From NCBI GenBank assembly GCA_963796275.1, contig CAWCKY010000004.1, positions 1,504,001-1,568,000 on the forward strand: a stretch of DNA of 64,000 bases, in the 5' to 3' direction. The number at the start of each line of letters is the position of its first letter. Positions within the stretch are counted from its first letter, which is position 1. The DNA is from an uncultured Acidobacteriota bacterium. Lineage in GTDB: Bacteria; Acidobacteriota; Blastocatellia; RBC074. Shown here in pieces: positions 51,651-64,000 of the stretch. Below the pieces are notes generated by a model. That model was not told where the DNA came from. It worked only from the letters and a program-made list of their open reading frames with translations, and did no database searches. Both the position numbers and the translations under genes were made by a program.

Positions 51651-51705
51651 TCCTTGACACTCTAGGGATGAGCGTGGCACCATCTTCCCCAGTTTTTCTA
51701 GGAGG
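51651..51705 (+). promoter_or_regulatory. padR promoter TTGACA-18-CACCAT with two imperfect CCTAGA/TCTAGG-type boxes
   Basis: CCTTGACACTCTAGGG and CCCAGTTTTTCTAGGA flank the -10 and overlap the -35 and RBS. Confidence 0.6.
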
Positions 51706-51711
51706 AACAGA

Positions 51712-52047
51712 ATGGCAGCTAAAGATAGGGCCGACCTTCTGCAGGGCACGCTCGACATGCTGATACTCAAAGCACTTTCTCTGGGACCGATGCACGGCTA
51801 TGGCGTCGGGCAGCGCATCATGCAACTGGCTGAAGACCTGCTCAGAGTTGAGGAAGGCTCACTCTATCCGGCGCTCTACCGGGTGGAAGAACGCGGCTGG
51901 ATCGAATCGGAATGGGGTACATCTGAGAATAACCGCCGCGCTCGTTTCTATCGACTCACCCGTGCCGGCCGCAAACAACTCCAGGTGGAAGAAGAGAATT
52001 GGCAGCGATTCGTGCTGGCTATCGGTAAAGTGATGCAAACAGCGTAA
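51712..52047 (+). CDS. padR: PadR-family transcriptional regulator (acidobacterial type)
   Basis: LLQGTLDMLILKAL..HGYG..EEGSLYPALYR.E..GWI.SEWG.SENNRRARFY.LT. Confidence 0.95.
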   Translation: MAAKDRADLLQGTLDMLILKALSLGPMHGYGVGQRIMQLAEDLLRVEEGSLYPALYRVEERGWIESEWGTSENNRRARFYRLTRAGRKQLQVEEENWQRFVLAIGKVMQTA

Positions 52048-52062
52048 GGGGCGTTCTAAACC

Positions 52063-60830: not shown

Positions 60831-60834
60831 ATCA

Positions 60835-63609
60835 ATGCGAAACAAACGCTGGTTTTATACCATCCCATTGCGGTTACGCTCCCTCTTTCGCCGCAGGCAA
60901 ATCGAGCAAGAACTGGACGAGGAGCTCCGCTATCACCTCGAGCGGCAAATCGAAGAGAACGTCACCAGGGGTATGACGCCGGAGGAGTCGCGTTATGCCG
61001 CGCTGCGCGCTTTGGGCGGGATCGAGCAGCGGAAGGAGGAGTGCCGTGATATGCGACGCGTGAGGCCGATAGAAGAACTGATACAAGATCTACGCTATGG
61101 GCTACGGACGCTGCGCAAGAGTCCCGGCTTCACGGCGGCGGCGGTGCTCTCGCTGGCACTGGGGATTGGAGCCAACACAGCGATTTTCAGCCTGGTCGAC
61201 CCAATCATAATCAAGACGCTTCCTGTCAAAAACCCGGAACAACTGGTAGTGCTTAGCGGCGATCGGCAATACCCGGGACTCCCCTACTCGATGGTCGAGG
61301 AACTTCGCACTCGCACCCAGGTGTTTTCAGGAATCTCCTTTTCCGATGCGGAAATGACCATAGACGTGGTCGACCCTGTAGCCGGAGATCAGATAGAGAC
61401 GGCCAGGCTACAGCTGGTTTCCGGGGAATATTTTCAGGTATTGGGCGTCAATGCGGTCCTCGGCCGCACGCTCACGTCAGCCGACAACCAGGCGCCCTGC
61501 CCAACTCCGGTGGCAGTGCTGAGCTACAGTTTCTGGCAGAGCAGATTCGCCGGAGACCTTTCGATAATCGGCAAAAGCATTACTCTGAGAAATCAGCCGT
61601 TCACCATCATCGGCGTAACGACGGCCGAATTCTTCGGCGATGAAGTGGGAAGCGCGCCCGATATCTGGGCGCCGCTACTGCTGATAAATAGCGTAAGAAC
61701 AGGCCAGCCGTGCCGCGGCGATAACGGTATCACGTTCAATCGACAGCTCATGGCGCGGCTCCGTCCGGGAGTGAGCATTGAGCAGGCTCGAGCGGCGCTG
61801 GACTTATTCTGGGGACAACTCGCGAACGAGCCGACGAGCGGGCTCGGAAGTTGGGTAAATAGATTTTCAAAGATGGGTTTTATCTCAAAGATAAAAATGT
61901 CTCCCGGCCAGCGAGGATTAACAATCCGAACGGCAGGAACGAGAGGACTGCGCAGCTGGATTGTTCAGCCGCTTCAAATCCTGATGACGGTCGTGGGACT
62001 GGTGCTCATCATCGCCTGCGCCAACGTCGCCAACCTGCTGCTGACGCGCGTCGCGGTGCGACAAAAAGAAGTTGCGATACGTCTCACCATCGGCGCGGGC
62101 CGCTTCAGGCTCATCCGCCAGTTCCTCACCGAAAGCGCCCTGCTGGCAGCCGCCGGCGGCCTTCTGGGACTGGTTTTCGCCTGGTGGGGCAGCCGTCTCC
62201 TCCTGGTTTTGATGTCGCGCGGCGCAACTCCTATCCCCATCGATGTGACGCCGAACATCCGCATTCTCGGCTTCACGATAATATCCTCGCTCCTGACGGT
62301 ATTTCTCTTCGGCCTGGCGCCCGCGCTCATCGCCACGCGGCAGGATCTGAATGCAACGCTCAAGGCATCCACGGCGCAGATTCTCCCCCGCTCACGCCTA
62401 TCGCTCTCCCGCTCTTTAGTGATTGCGCAAGTCGCGCTGTCGGTCCTGCTGCTGACCGGAGCCGGCCTGATCATCCAGACCTTGCATAACCTGCGCACGA
62501 TGGATTTCGGAATCGATACTGAACACATCATCCAGGCCCGCGTCTCCGCGGAAGAAGCGGGTTATCAAGGAAATCAGGTAACTGAACTAAAACAGCGAAT
62601 ACTCGAAAGGCTGAACTCCGCGCCGGGCGTTCGCTCCGCCGCCACGGCAGATAGCGGATTTCTGTCGGGCACCGGCACTTCATGTTGTCTCGCCATCGAA
62701 GGCTTTGCTCTTCATCTCGATGAAGACCGCAAAATCGACGTCGACTACGTGAGGCCCGGTTATTTTCAAACTCTGGGTCTGCCGCTGATGCTCGGTCGGG
62801 ACTTTACCGCAGAAGATCTAAGTCACGACCCCTACAATCGGCAGAATCGAAGCCGCGAGCCGGCCGCCGGCCCGATAGCCGCGATCATCAACGAAACGAT
62901 GGCGCGTAAATATTTCGGGACTGCAAATCCTCTGGGGAAACGCTTTGGTATGCAAATTCCGGGGCGGAGCAATATCAATTACAACAGAGAGATCGTCGGC
63001 GTCGTTAAAGATTCCCCCTACTGGGAGATCCGTGCCGAGATACGACCGCTGATCTATATTCCCAGTCAGGAAGGAGATATGTTCGTGGTGCGTGCGGAGG
63101 GTCGGGCTGACTCGCTTGTGGCAACGATCCGCCGGGAGATCGAGGCTGTCGACAAGAAATTAAAGGCGAGCGACATCCACACTGCCTCTCAGGCTATTGA
63201 TAGACGCCTGTTTTCAGAAATATTGCTGGCCAGGCTTTCGAGCTTTTTTGCCCTGCTGGCGCTGCTACTCGCTTGCGTCGGGCTGTATGGCGTGCTGTCC
63301 TACGAGGTGGCGCGCCGCACGCACGAGATCGGCATACGGATGGCGCTCGGCGCGCAACGAAGGGACGTCGTCGGGATGGTAATGCGCGAAACTATGCTGC
63401 TGTTGATTATAGGCATAGTCATTGGACTGAGCGCAGCATTGGGCTCTACACGCTTCATTGCAAGTTTGTTGTATGGTCTGACGCCGAATGATCCATTAAC
63501 AATCGCGCTTGCTTCAATGATGCTGCTGATTGTTGCGGTGCTGGCGGGTTATCTGCCGGCGCGCAGAGCTGCGCGTGTCGATCCGATGGTGGCATTGCGC
63601 CACGATTAG
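60835..63609 (+). CDS. ADOP-family permease 4 (second prefix type)
   Basis: 924 aa intact; prefix [32 protein letters not shown]. Confidence 0.95.
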   Translation: MRNKRWFYTIPLRLRSLFRRRQIEQELDEELRYHLERQIEENVTRGMTPEESRYAALRALGGIEQRKEECRDMRRVRPIEELIQDLRYGLRTLRKSPGFTAAAVLSLALGIGANTAIFSLVDPIIIKTLPVKNPEQLVVLSGDRQYPGLPYSMVEELRTRTQVFSGISFSDAEMTIDVVDPVAGDQIETARLQLVSGEYFQVLGVNAVLGRTLTSADNQAPCPTPVAVLSYSFWQSRFAGDLSIIGKSITLRNQPFTIIGVTTAEFFGDEVGSAPDIWAPLLLINSVRTGQPCRGDNGITFNRQLMARLRPGVSIEQARAALDLFWGQLANEPTSGLGSWVNRFSKMGFISKIKMSPGQRGLTIRTAGTRGLRSWIVQPLQILMTVVGLVLIIACANVANLLLTRVAVRQKEVAIRLTIGAGRFRLIRQFLTESALLAAAGGLLGLVFAWWGSRLLLVLMSRGATPIPIDVTPNIRILGFTIISSLLTVFLFGLAPALIATRQDLNATLKASTAQILPRSRLSLSRSLVIAQVALSVLLLTGAGLIIQTLHNLRTMDFGIDTEHIIQARVSAEEAGYQGNQVTELKQRILERLNSAPGVRSAATADSGFLSGTGTSCCLAIEGFALHLDEDRKIDVDYVRPGYFQTLGLPLMLGRDFTAEDLSHDPYNRQNRSREPAAGPIAAIINETMARKYFGTANPLGKRFGMQIPGRSNINYNREIVGVVKDSPYWEIRAEIRPLIYIPSQEGDMFVVRAEGRADSLVATIRREIEAVDKKLKASDIHTASQAIDRRLFSEILLARLSSFFALLALLLACVGLYGVLSYEVARRTHEIGIRMALGAQRRDVVGMVMRETMLLLIIGIVIGLSAALGSTRFIASLLYGLTPNDPLTIALASMMLLIVAVLAGYLPARRAARVDPMVALRHD

Positions 63610-63621
63610 GAGGATCGAGAG

Positions 63622-64000
63622 ATGCGATTCATACGCTGGTTCTACACTATGCCGCTAAGGTTGCGCTCGCTCTTCCGTCGCAGACAAGTCGAGCAGGAAC
63701 TGGACGAGGAGCTCCGCTATCACATCGAGCGGCAAATTGAAGAACACATCGCCAAAGGTATGACACCGGAGGAAGCGCGATACACCGCTCTGCGCGCACT
63801 GGGCGGGATCGAGCAGAGAAAAGAGGAGTGCCGCGATCTGCGACGGGTGAGATTGATTGAAGATCTAATACAAGACCTCCGCTACGGGCTACGAACACTG
63901 CGCAAGAGTCCTGGAGTCACGGCAATTGCCATCCTCTCGCTTGCCCTCGGAATTGGAGCCAACACAGCTATCTTCAGCCTGATCAACGCGCTGATGTTGA
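63622..64000 (+). CDS. ADOP-family permease 5 (partial, runs off window)
   Basis: [45 protein letters not shown]...[12 protein letters not shown]; not in the ORF track. Confidence 0.9.

What the first reader, a model, noticed from the sequence alone, without database searches (positions are those of the whole stretch)
51651..64000. PadR-ADOP array that appears to keep a constant N-terminal prefix while exchanging the permease body
Seen: permeases 1, 2 and 3 share a ~95-codon cytoplasmic prefix that is nearly identical at DNA level. Permease 3 then diverges strongly after LKNPGF, while 1 and 2 stay similar throughout. Both intergenic gaps contain pieces of the padR 3' end: a 15-nt exact match at 54709-54723 and ~60 nt at 57426-57486. 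The amplified unit therefore began inside padR. Permeases 4 and 5 share a different prefix and follow a different, decayed padR. No ABC ATPase is present. Known: ADOP permeases and PadR regulators co-occur in Acidobacteria with unknown function. Inference: the prefix is a cognate PadR-interacting signalling module, and recombination attaches new periplasmic bodies behind it. This would give a diversifying membrane-sensor repertoire, here next to or inside a conjugative element.
Basis: partly seen in the sequence, partly recalled or inferred. Interest (0 to 1): 0.82.

Follow-up and report, generated by a model that had tools for sequence, protein, structure and literature searches.

The report
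PadR sensor array with swapped permease bodies
A small repressor gene is followed by a row of membrane permease genes that share one short regulator-associated head but carry unrelated bodies, showing that head and body have been recombined repeatedly in a known but untested type of bacterial signalling pair.

Summary
The array is padR (51712-52047), three ADOP permeases with a type-A prefix, a decayed padR (60506-60831), then two ADOPs and a stub with a type-B prefix. The nearest ABC ATPase match on this contig lies about 104 kb away.

The prefix is NCBIfam perm_prefix_1. Its pairing with PadR and FtsX/MacB_PCD bodies is already published as the predicted HAAS-PadR dyad (PMC11237479).

The mosaic claim is supported:
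- **Local divergence:** prefixes of permeases 1-3 are 84-90% identical in DNA, with unsaturated synonymous sites (pS 0.23-0.44). Permease 3's body is about 50% identical and saturated.
- **Tree tests:** the body alignment rejects a {1,2,3} clade (AU p 0.0003), and the prefix alignment rejects the body clade.
- **Genome-wide:** the nearest prefix is also the nearest body in only 4 of 39 genes. Tracts end just after TM1. PadR identity tracks prefix identity (Mantel r 0.71).
- **Public data:** 108 proteins carry this prefix type on bodies at most 44% identical to permease 3.

The events are old, with no sign of programmed diversification. Binding is not shown; the complex model gave weak support only. 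Permease 2 has a one-base frameshift that may be an assembly error. This is a known kind of system with an undescribed, ordinary recombinational history.

The parts
51591..51625 (.). Inverted repeat (11-nt arms, 13 nt apart) 87-121 nt upstream of padR; candidate PadR operator
   Evidence: role is inferred only
51712..52047 (+). padR, intact, 111 aa
   Evidence: TIGR03433 155.5 bits (cut-off 101.8); Pfam PadR
52063..54705 (+). ADOP permease 1, 880 aa, type-A prefix (aa 1-96) plus duplicated MacB_PCD/FtsX body
   Evidence: TIGR03434 957 bits, NF038403 41 bits; Pfam
54709..54723 (+). 15-nt exact remnant of the padR 3' end, directly after the permease 1 stop
54747..57421 (+). ADOP permease 2. A 1-nt deletion after 54884 puts the prefix (54747-54884) out of frame. 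The continuous ORF is 54938-57421 (827 aa) and lacks perm_prefix_1.
   Evidence: One metagenome contig carries an extra C at 54889, which would restore the frame (table 7)
57426..57486 (+). 61-nt remnant of the padR 3' end (49/54 aligned bases identical, 7-nt insertion), 4 nt after the permease 2 stop
57527..60175 (+). ADOP permease 3, 882 aa: type-A prefix on a body of another ADOP lineage (best in-genome body identity 41%)
57767..57910 (+). Juxtamembrane/TM1-coding segment of permease 3. This is among the most conserved DNA of the family, and the high-identity tract ends at its far side.
   Evidence: 76-84% hits in many genera; conservation profile; depth 550-820 in soil contigs; tract ends
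60441..60486 (.). Inverted repeat (16-nt arms, 14 nt apart) upstream of the decayed padR, conserved with the intact C7 paralogue; candidate operator
60506..60831 (+). Decayed padR (at least six indels and in-frame stops)
   Evidence: alignment to the intact padR at G000:C7:927843-928181
60835..63609 (+). ADOP permease 4, 924 aa, type-B prefix
63622..64000 (+). 5' part of ADOP permease 5 (891 aa, ends at window-equivalent 66297), type-B prefix. It is followed outside the window by a type-B prefix+TM1 stub with an in-frame stop (about 66300-66640).
34880..35248 (+). Isolated prefix+TM1 stub, cut off just after TM1 (another break at the same place)

Best explanation
**What it is.** This is a two-unit array of the known PadR / HAAS-prefixed ADOP kind.
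- Unit A is an intact padR followed by three ADOP genes that share one prefix type.
- Unit B is a dead padR followed by two ADOP genes and a stub that share another prefix type.

**Shown.** The 5' module has a younger history than the permease bodies, and one that conflicts with theirs. That module is the prefix plus the juxtamembrane/TM1 segment, and often the padR tail or the whole padR. Homologous recombination between paralogues has repeatedly placed one prefix type in front of unrelated bodies. The events could be unequal crossing-over, gene conversion, or deletion between tandem copies. The 3' breakpoint recurs in or just after the TM1-coding segment, which is among the most conserved stretches of DNA in the family. 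In unit A the duplication junction lies inside padR and was copied once. Permease 2's own prefix is mosaic: its first ~13 codons and 5' UTR group with permease 3, the rest with permease 1.

**Inferred.** The prefix is the cytoplasmic HAAS-like partner of the PadR repressor. Under this reading it holds or reconfigures PadR at the membrane until the periplasmic MacB-like body senses its signal. Several different sensor bodies could then feed one PadR type. Recombinants that keep PadR and prefix matched would be the ones that survive.
For: **Local evidence**
- Prefix pS is 0.23-0.44, against body pS 0.72-0.75 for pairs that include permease 3.
- Same-codon use at identical residues is 50/76 in the prefix and 97/282 in the body for permeases 1 and 3.
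- Informative sites switch along the alignment. From the start codon to about codon 13 the counts (1=2: 2=3: 1=3) are 1:13:1. Beyond column 1000 they are 583:167:107.
- The prefix tree gives {1,2,3} support of 100/97.
- The body tree puts 1 and 2 with C2_234282 and places 3 elsewhere.
- The AU test on the body alignment rejects {1,2,3} (dlnL 122, p 0.0003). The AU test on the prefix alignment rejects {1,2,C2_234282} (p 3e-6).

**Genome-wide evidence (39 genes with a full prefix and body)**
- Prefix and body identity are almost uncorrelated (r 0.11 over 741 pairs).
- The nearest prefix is the nearest body for only 4 of 39 genes.
- 9 of 548 pairs show Bonferroni-significant excess codon identity in the prefix, including pairs on different contigs.
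- In 7 of 7 pairs examined, the high-identity tract ends +340 to +400 nt from the prefix start, while its 5' end varies.
- TM1 is a family-wide peak of DNA conservation, 0.61-0.67.
- Two prefix+TM1 stubs are cut at the same place.

**Beyond this genome**
- In a same-genus genome, a type-A prefix (0.67-0.70 identity) sits on a C6_2400034-type body (0.66). A true orthologue pair there shows equal prefix and body identity (0.72 and 0.71).
- 108 public full-length proteins have prefixes 0.64-0.91 identical to permease 3's, with bodies at most 0.44 identical to it.
- The 21 of these with prefix identity of 0.80 or more fall into 13 body clusters.

**Functional inference**
- The architecture is listed in PMC11237479.
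- Mantel test of PadR identity against prefix identity: r 0.706, reached by 0 of 5000 permutations, over 17 adjacent pairs.
- Tandem pairs with no padR between them have prefix identity of 0.58 or more in 6 of 6 cases. Pairs with a padR between them have 0.46 or less in 3 of 3 cases.
- PadR class against prefix class: 13 type-I prefixes sit behind the main PadR class and 2 behind the divergent class. 6 non-type-I permeases sit behind the divergent class and 0 behind the main class. 28 of 30 permeases with a short N-terminus have no padR upstream.
- Prefix dN/dS is 0.08-0.26, so the prefix is under purifying selection in downstream array members too.
- Complex model of a PadR dimer plus the prefix: weak support. 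The median score was 0.59 and the best of 3 controls 0.01. That mark was reached by 116 of 157 solved complexes and 2 of 215 mismatched pairs. At 0.60 or under, only 18 of those 157 reached it, along with both of the passing mismatches. The runs agree in at least 92% of contacts, and the partner's pLDDT is at least 69.
Against: - No direct evidence of PadR-prefix contact exists, and by the tool's own calibration the complex pass is weak.
- PadR and prefix lie 15-40 nt apart. Any recombination tract that covers both gives covariation without function, and paralogues are not independent data points.
- The clades put to the AU tests were chosen after the trees were seen.
- The body tree is the quick tree; the careful search did not finish.
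- TM1 is conserved family-wide, so the exact crossover point is masked. The apparent common breakpoint may partly reflect where background identity falls.
- Pfam HAAS (PF22564) matches only 4 of 20 prefixes at E up to 1 (best 0.0046), and does not match permease 1's prefix.
- The AF2 model of the prefix is of low confidence (pLDDT 56).
- Unit B has lost its padR in cis, yet its prefixes are still conserved. That requires a PadR acting in trans.
- Public proteins were compared at protein level only, so slow prefix evolution cannot be excluded for them.
Confidence: 0.7

Rival explanations
1. Neutral concerted evolution. Gene conversion and unequal crossing-over hit the 5' end simply because the prefix-TM1 stretch is among the best-conserved stretches of DNA between paralogues. 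On this view, matching of the prefix to PadR is a by-product of linkage and is not selected. The prefix could still have any function.
For: - TM1 and the juxtamembrane segment are family-wide conservation peaks.
- That segment gives 76-84% hits across genera.
- padR and the prefix are physically adjacent, so they would be co-converted.
- The 5' ends of the tracts vary from pair to pair.
Against: - Other equally conserved segments exist (TM2 at 0.57-0.69, the C-terminus at 0.66). Yet the long high-identity tracts are seen at the 5' module.
- Exchange also occurs between distant loci and contigs.
- Prefix-less ADOPs lack a padR upstream in 28 of 30 cases.
- The prefixes are under purifying selection (dN/dS 0.08-0.26).
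Confidence: 0.2
2. There was no recombination. The prefix simply evolves much more slowly than the body, so old paralogues keep similar prefixes.
For: - The prefix is under purifying selection.
- Public proteins share 64-91% identical prefixes over bodies at 31-44% identity to permease 3's. At protein level alone, that would fit rate heterogeneity.
Against: - Synonymous and same-codon tests show younger ancestry for specific pairs only. The median prefix pS genome-wide is 0.73, the same as the body's 0.71.
- Trees conflict in both directions under AU tests.
- Permease 1's closest body (C2_234282, 0.69) carries a prefix only 0.39 identical to permease 1's.
- An orthologue pair shows equal prefix and body identity, 0.72 and 0.71.
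- The non-coding padR remnant is 91% identical to padR, while body dS between permeases 1 and 2 is 0.65.
Confidence: 0.04
3. The prefix is not a PadR partner. It might instead be a docking site for an ATPase encoded elsewhere, since it occupies the N-terminal cytoplasmic position where MacB carries its nucleotide-binding domain. Or it might be a membrane-insertion or translational-coupling element. PadR would then merely repress the operon.
For: - ADOPs have no ATPase nearby, while 77 ABC_tran matches exist elsewhere in the genome.
- An absent neighbour does not show that the permease works without an ATPase.
- HAAS membership by sequence is weak.
Against: - Prefix presence tracks an upstream padR, and prefix class tracks PadR class.
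- Prefix-less ADOPs are just as ATPase-less.
- The complex model scored the PadR-prefix pair 0.59 against 0.01 for the controls, which is weak support.
Confidence: 0.1
4. Programmed diversification. On this view the array is a cassette system that actively swaps sensor bodies behind a fixed expression and signalling head, in the manner of shufflons, pilin cassettes or DGRs.
For: - The layout is tandem, with one head type and several bodies.
- A stub of a further unit is present.
- The neighbourhood is mobile-element rich.
Against: - The prefix copies differ by 10-16% in DNA, with dS 0.28-0.67, so the events are ancient.
- Every unit is a full gene with its own start.
- No recombinase, reverse transcriptase or recombination-site repeats were found beside the array.
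- Laid contigs showed no credible alternative joints. Those listed fall in the paralogous TM1 region.
Confidence: 0.02

Closest known systems
HAAS-PadR-like wHTH dyad (Ravi and co-workers, mSystems 2024, PMC11237479; passages read)
   Same: - A standalone PadR gene sits next to a membrane protein with a short helical N-terminal domain.
- The paper explicitly lists fusion of HAAS to FtsX-like TM domains with MacB/PCD domains.
- The proposed mechanism is the one inferred here: the sensor changes HAAS, which releases or reconfigures PadR.
   Different: - The paper describes dyads. Here one PadR heads several sensors that share a prefix type.
- The prefix and body show discordant ancestry with a recurring breakpoint at TM1. 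I did not find this described: the searches turned up no paper on it, but I read only passages of this one paper and none of its supplements.
- The Pfam HAAS model barely detects these prefixes (4 of 20).
NCBIfam TIGR03434 ADOP, TIGR03433 padR_acidobact and NF038403 perm_prefix_1
   Same: All parts score above the curated cut-offs. The names themselves record the orphan duplicated permease, the PadR neighbour and a modular 'prefix'.
   Different: The models are annotation tools only. The family descriptions beyond the model names are recalled, not seen in a call. No statement about recombination between prefix and body was seen.
MacB / FtsX-type mechanotransmission permeases, and BceAB-BceS sensing through a permease (recalled from general knowledge, not tested here)
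   Same: The body has FtsX-type TM domains with large periplasmic MacB_PCD domains. The idea of a transporter-like body used as a sensor for a regulator is shared.
   Different: No ATPase partner lies nearby. The body is internally duplicated. Output would go to a PadR repressor through an N-terminal helical domain, not to a histidine kinase.
Sensor-domain shuffling in two-component kinases and chemoreceptors; concerted evolution of tandem paralogues (general knowledge)
   Same: A conserved signalling module is combined with variable sensor modules by recombination, and the ends of tandem genes are homogenised.
   Different: Here the conserved module is N-terminal. It is co-inherited with its separate DNA-binding partner gene, and the exchange point is a transmembrane-helix coding segment.

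Membership tests
ADOP (NCBIfam TIGR03434) | Full-length match above the curated cut-off (622.3 bits) | tested here: met
   Permeases 1-4 score 957, 946, 889 and 876 bits. Only the 126 aa of permease 5 inside the window were scanned there. Its full ORF (891 aa) scores 1233 bits with my local body HMM.
ADOP (NCBIfam TIGR03434) | Internal duplication: two MacB_PCD and two FtsX domains | tested here: met
   Pfam reports two stretches each of PF12704 and PF02687 in permeases 1-4.
ADOP (NCBIfam TIGR03434) | Orphan: no adjacent ABC ATPase gene | tested here: met
   The nearest PF00005 match on the contig is about 104 kb away. None was found among the 53 upstream and 11 downstream flanking ORFs scanned. 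This does not show that the permeases work without an ATPase.
Acidobacterial PadR (NCBIfam TIGR03433) | Match above the curated cut-off (101.8 bits), next to an ADOP | tested here: met
   155.5 bits. The gap to permease 1 is 15 nt.
perm_prefix_1 (NCBIfam NF038403) | N-terminal domain match above 30 bits | tested here: met
   Permeases 1, 3, 4 and 5 score 41.2, 53.1, 63.9 and 70.3 bits, and 20 of 20 genome prefixes match. The continuous ORF of permease 2 lacks the domain because of the frameshift; the upstream frame carries it.
HAAS-PadR dyad (PMC11237479) | HAAS domain recognisable by sequence (Pfam PF22564) | tested here: inconclusive
   4 of 20 prefixes match at E up to 1 (best 0.0046). Permease 1's prefix matches nothing. 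A profile search against PDB sequences found nothing better than E 0.73.
HAAS-PadR dyad (PMC11237479) | Three-helix core with a kinked third helix at a conserved GxP motif | tested here: inconclusive
   AF2 gives three helices (2-41, 46-70, 73-92), but the mean pLDDT is 56. The alignment has an invariant G43 in a G-x-x-P turn and a near-invariant G58, but no clear GxP.
HAAS-PadR dyad (PMC11237479) | Always encoded next to a standalone PadR-like wHTH; N-terminal fusion to a multi-TM sensor such as FtsX/MacB_PCD | tested here: met
   Unit A has an intact padR and unit B a decayed one. Genome-wide, 15 of the 39 type-I-prefixed ADOPs have a padR directly upstream, and most of the remaining 24 are downstream array members or orphans.
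HAAS-PadR dyad (PMC11237479) | Physical and functional coupling of the prefix to PadR | not testable with these tools
   Only a model is available: weak support, score 0.59 against a best control of 0.01. There is also covariation. The paper itself offers this coupling as a proposal.

The most novel reading that the evidence does not exclude
The prefix-plus-TM1 segment is an exchangeable adaptor. It defines which PadR a sensor talks to. Recombination at the conserved TM1-coding segment is then the routine evolutionary route by which these soil bacteria rewire dozens of periplasmic ADOP sensor bodies onto a small set of PadR regulators. Arrays such as this one would be multi-input hubs for a single repressor. 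This would give the still untested HAAS-PadR system a specificity code that can be read from PadR and prefix sequence pairs. It would also supply a natural set of chimeras for testing that code.
Probability: 0.3. Interest if true: 0.6.

Novelty: new member of a known kind. Interest (0 to 1): 0.45.

Why it matters
ADOP permeases are among the largest paralogous families in soil Acidobacteriota, and none has a known function. This genome alone holds 77 or more full-length copies. The HAAS-PadR dyad is a predicted alternative to two-component signalling that nobody has tested.

Head and body have separate histories, and PadR type tracks head type. Together these say where the functional module boundary lies, namely after TM1. 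Nature has also already made chimeras here: the same head on 13 or more body lineages.

That makes the binding and specificity hypothesis directly testable with a few constructs. It does not reveal a new kind of system, and the mechanism of exchange is ordinary homologous recombination.

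Tried and rejected
- **Fold search.** The AF2 model of the prefix was too poor to use (pLDDT 56), so no fold search was run.
- **PDB profile search.** Searching with the prefix alignment found nothing meaningful; the best E-value was 0.73.
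- **Promoter and terminator scan of the array.** It found fewer sites than in the shuffles (3 against 5.6, and 4 against 10.6), so it gave no information.
- **Synteny in relatives.** None of the 30 other genomes searched holds a syntenic array, so the ancestral arrangement could not be reconstructed.
- **Replication in another genome.**
  - In G027, only 1 of the 30 best ADOP ORFs has a type-I prefix.
  - The NF038403 search of G007 gave 0 matches at E 1e-5.
  - The genome-wide codon test therefore rests on this one genome.
- **Careful body tree.** The search did not finish in the time allowed, so the quick tree was used.
- **Sequencing runs.**
  - No RNA holder is listed.
  - The laid contigs are short and of low depth, and none spans the array or its junctions.
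  - The joints listed fall in the paralogous TM1 region and are not taken as real.
- **Literature.**
  - 'permease prefix domain' gave 0 papers.
  - ADOP/Acidobacteria/permease and Acidobacteria/PadR/paralog/FtsX gave nothing on prefix-body recombination.
  - The supplements of PMC11237479 were not opened and may list further architectures.
- **Earlier findings of this scan.** A look-up for recombination or gene conversion in ADOPs returned nothing, and so did a look-up of notes on this genome.
- **Readings considered and rejected.**
  - An assembly chimera is unlikely, because the copies differ by 10-16% and are not identical repeats.
  - A selection-only explanation was rejected (see the rival explanations).

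Full report
**What is there.** On the + strand lie the following genes.
- padR (51712-52047, 111 aa) and permease 1 (52063-54705).
- Permease 2 (5' ATG at 54747; continuous ORF 54938-57421).
- Permease 3 (57527-60175).
- A decayed padR (60506-60831).
- Permease 4 (60835-63609).
- Permease 5 (63622 to window-equivalent 66297).

NCBIfam places padR in TIGR03433 at 155.5 bits. It places the four permeases that lie wholly in the window in TIGR03434 (ADOP) at 876-957 bits. It finds NF038403 perm_prefix_1 at the N-terminus of permeases 1, 3, 4 and 5. Pfam finds two MacB_PCD and two FtsX stretches in each. The nearest ABC_tran match on the contig is about 104 kb away, and none occurs among the 64 flanking ORFs scanned.

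- The 15-nt padR match at 54709-54723 is exact.
- The remnant at 57426-57486 is 61 nt long: 49 of 54 aligned bases are identical, with a 7-nt insertion.
- Both remnants begin 3-4 nt after the preceding stop and at the same padR position, so one junction inside padR was formed once and then copied.
- The prefixes are 84-90% identical in DNA, not nearly identical.
- Permease 2 has a one-base deletion after 54884 that puts its prefix out of frame. One soil-metagenome contig ends there with an extra C, which would restore the frame (table 7). Many other ADOPs in this assembly are also fragmented. The frameshift may therefore be an assembly error or a polymorphism.
- The decayed padR has at least six indels and in-frame stops relative to an intact paralogue on contig C7.
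- Past the window, a sixth unit survives as a type-B prefix with an in-frame stop, cut off inside TM1. A similar prefix+TM1 stub lies at 34880-35248.

**Is the mosaic real?** Yes.
- Nei-Gojobori estimates give prefix pS of 0.23 (1-2), 0.44 (1-3) and 0.34 (2-3). In the first 40 codons, 2-3 is only 0.08.
- Body pS is 0.44 (1-2) and saturated for 1-3 and 2-3 (0.75 and 0.72).
- At residues identical in both proteins, permeases 1 and 3 use the same codon at 50 of 76 prefix sites but only 97 of 282 body sites (p 8.7e-7). This controls for protein-level selection.
- Informative sites switch pattern along the alignment (counts in the order 1=2: 2=3: 1=3). From the start codon to about codon 13 they are 1:13:1. 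Beyond column 1000 they are 583:167:107. Permease 2's own 5' end is therefore mosaic.
- The prefix tree groups {1,2,3} at 100/97.
- The body tree groups 1 and 2 with a gene on contig C2 and places 3 elsewhere, with a best body identity of 41%.
- AU tests reject each partition's clade on the other partition (p 0.0003; p 3e-6).
- Two caveats apply. The clades were chosen after the trees were seen, and the body tree is the quick one.

**It is not a local curiosity.** A census with HMMs built from the five local genes found three things:
- 77 ADOP ORFs with an essentially full body;
- 39 genes with both a full type-I prefix and a full body;
- 44 PadR ORFs.

Among the 39 genes:
- Prefix and body identities are almost uncorrelated (r 0.11 over 741 pairs).
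- The nearest prefix belongs to the nearest body in only 4 of 39.
- Median pS is 0.73 for the prefix and 0.71 for the body, so most prefix pairs are saturated. A minority have prefix pS of 0.32-0.45 over saturated bodies.
- 9 of 548 pairs pass a Bonferroni-corrected codon test, including pairs on different contigs.
- Four of five further body clades are rejected by the prefix alignment. The fifth is not (p 0.08).

In all 7 pairs whose DNA I slid along, the high-identity tract ends +340 to +400 nt from the prefix start, that is, after TM1. Its 5' end differs from pair to pair:
- the whole padR and its promoter region in one pair;
- part of the padR tail in others;
- only the gene start in the rest.

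TM1 and the juxtamembrane segment form a family-wide peak of DNA conservation at 0.61-0.67. The periplasmic domain that follows is at 0.36-0.45. The TM1 segment gives 76-84% hits in many genera. It also piles up a summed depth of 550-820 in contigs of three of the four soil runs laid. The simplest mechanism is homologous recombination resolved in this conserved segment. Its conservation also hides the exact crossover point.

**Outside this genome.**
- No relative among the 30 other genomes searched keeps the array.
- In a same-genus genome, a type-A prefix (0.67-0.70 identity) sits on a body closest (0.66) to a different paralogue of this genome. A genuine orthologue pair there shows equal prefix and body identity (0.72 and 0.71). 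That argues against a generally slower prefix clock.
- A search with residues 1-125 of permease 3 listed 119 public proteins besides the query itself.
- Of these, 108 are 800 aa or longer. Their prefixes are 0.64-0.91 identical to permease 3's, and no body exceeds 0.44 identity to it.
- 7 of the 108 have bodies of the permease 1/2 type, and 97 are below 0.5 to all three.
- The 21 with prefix identity of 0.80 or more fall into 13 body clusters at 55% identity. 177 of the 200 pairs with prefix identity of 0.8 or more have body identity below 0.5.
- This comparison is at protein level only.

**What the prefix does.**
- The architecture is in print. [quoted passage not shown] It proposes that HAAS passes a sensor's conformational change to PadR.
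- Adjacent PadR and prefix identities covary (Mantel r 0.706, reached by 0 of 5000 permutations, 17 pairs).
- Tandem genes with no padR between them share a prefix type (6 of 6 at 0.58 or more). Tandem genes separated by a padR do not (3 of 3 at 0.46 or less).
- A divergent PadR class goes with a different N-terminal extension.
- ADOPs with a short N-terminus have no padR upstream in 28 of 30 cases.
- Prefixes of downstream array members are under purifying selection (dN/dS 0.08-0.26).
- A complex model of a PadR dimer with the prefix scored 0.59 against 0.01 for the best of three controls. The tool rates this as weak support. Passes at 0.60 or under were reached by 18 of the 157 solved complexes and by both of the 2 passing mismatches among 215. 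The runs agree in at least 92% of contacts, and the partner's pLDDT is at least 69.
- Linkage alone could produce the covariation, because padR and the prefix are 15-40 nt apart and paralogues are not independent. Membership in HAAS by sequence or fold is inconclusive.

**History of this array.** Two routes fit the data.
- **Route (a):** a padR-permease unit was duplicated through a junction inside padR. Later copies had their bodies replaced from other paralogues, between the conserved TM1 and C-terminal segments.
- **Route (b):** unrelated neighbouring ADOPs had their 5' modules converted, and unequal crossing-over in the shared tail-plus-prefix then duplicated permease 1/2.

The non-coding padR remnant is 91% identical to padR, while body dS between permeases 1 and 2 is 0.65. 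The 5' module is therefore younger than the bodies under either route. Prefix dS of 0.28-0.67, and 82% DNA identity between this padR and its same-genus orthologue, put the events at roughly the age of species in the genus. Nothing suggests programmed switching.

**Verdict.**
- The recombination reading is supported and extends genome-wide.
- The signalling reading is a known hypothesis that gains indirect support only.
- The system is a member of a known kind.
- The separate ancestry of head and body, with a common boundary after TM1, was not found in the searched literature. It is mechanistically ordinary.
- Earlier notes of this scan on other genomes reached the same identification of the PadR-prefix-ADOP architecture. 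None noted the recombination.

Noticed in passing
window 20883-22718 (+), 5031-5555 (+): A type IV secretion coupling protein (T4SS-DNA_transf, TraG-D_C, TrwB) and an SLT transglycosylase sit among many ORFs with no family. This fits a conjugative or integrative element upstream of the array.
   Followed up: partly
window-equivalent 66756-78002 (locus L057:2756-14002): Downstream of the array lie DUF4236, DUF6117, a second DnaN beta-clamp paralogue, DUF6744, a weak VWA match, a bpMoxR ATPase and a DDE_5 transposase. The array is therefore flanked on both sides by accessory or mobile-type genes.
   Followed up: partly
window 34880-35248, 36716-37675, 44007-46754: More ADOP material lies in the window: a prefix+TM1 stub, a C-terminal half of an ADOP, and a further 915-aa ADOP with a partial prefix.
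   Followed up: partly
whole genome G000: Dozens of ADOP genes are split into 2-5 consecutive ORFs. Either pseudogenes are common in this family, or the assembly carries many indel errors. The extra C seen at 54889 in one metagenome contig points to the second possibility for permease 2.
   Followed up: partly
G000:C1:1084570-1087686, C4:967194-970262, C4:1621285-1624411, C2:222681-225762, C6:767961-770989: A second, divergent PadR class is paired with ADOPs whose N-terminal extension differs from the type-I prefix. In three of them it shares a motif around RLRADW..EWEAEL, and in two it is different again. My type-I prefix HMM does not detect either, and these extensions were not scanned against NCBIfam.
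   Followed up: no
L025 (G001:C201:3800-9800): The same-genus orthologue of this padR (82% DNA identity) is followed by a hotdog-thioesterase-like ORF and a CrcB-like ORF, not by an ADOP.
   Followed up: no
window 57636-57920: In three of the four soil-metagenome runs laid, the summed contig depth over the TM1 segment of permease 3 is 550-820. Elsewhere in the array it mostly stays below about 70. Many other genes in soil therefore share this segment at 95% identity or more.
   Followed up: partly
window 9827-10279 (-): A 150-aa ORF matches the first 47 positions of the Pfam SpvB domain (E 5e-16). It looks like a fragment of a larger protein.
   Followed up: no
window 42043-42743 (+): A small ORF is followed by a PIN-domain ORF that overlaps it by 4 nt. 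This is a likely toxin-antitoxin pair.
   Followed up: no
window 60176-60505: About 330 nt between the permease 3 stop and the decayed padR have no family match. The 90-aa minus-strand ORF at 60249-60521 had no Pfam hit.
   Followed up: partly
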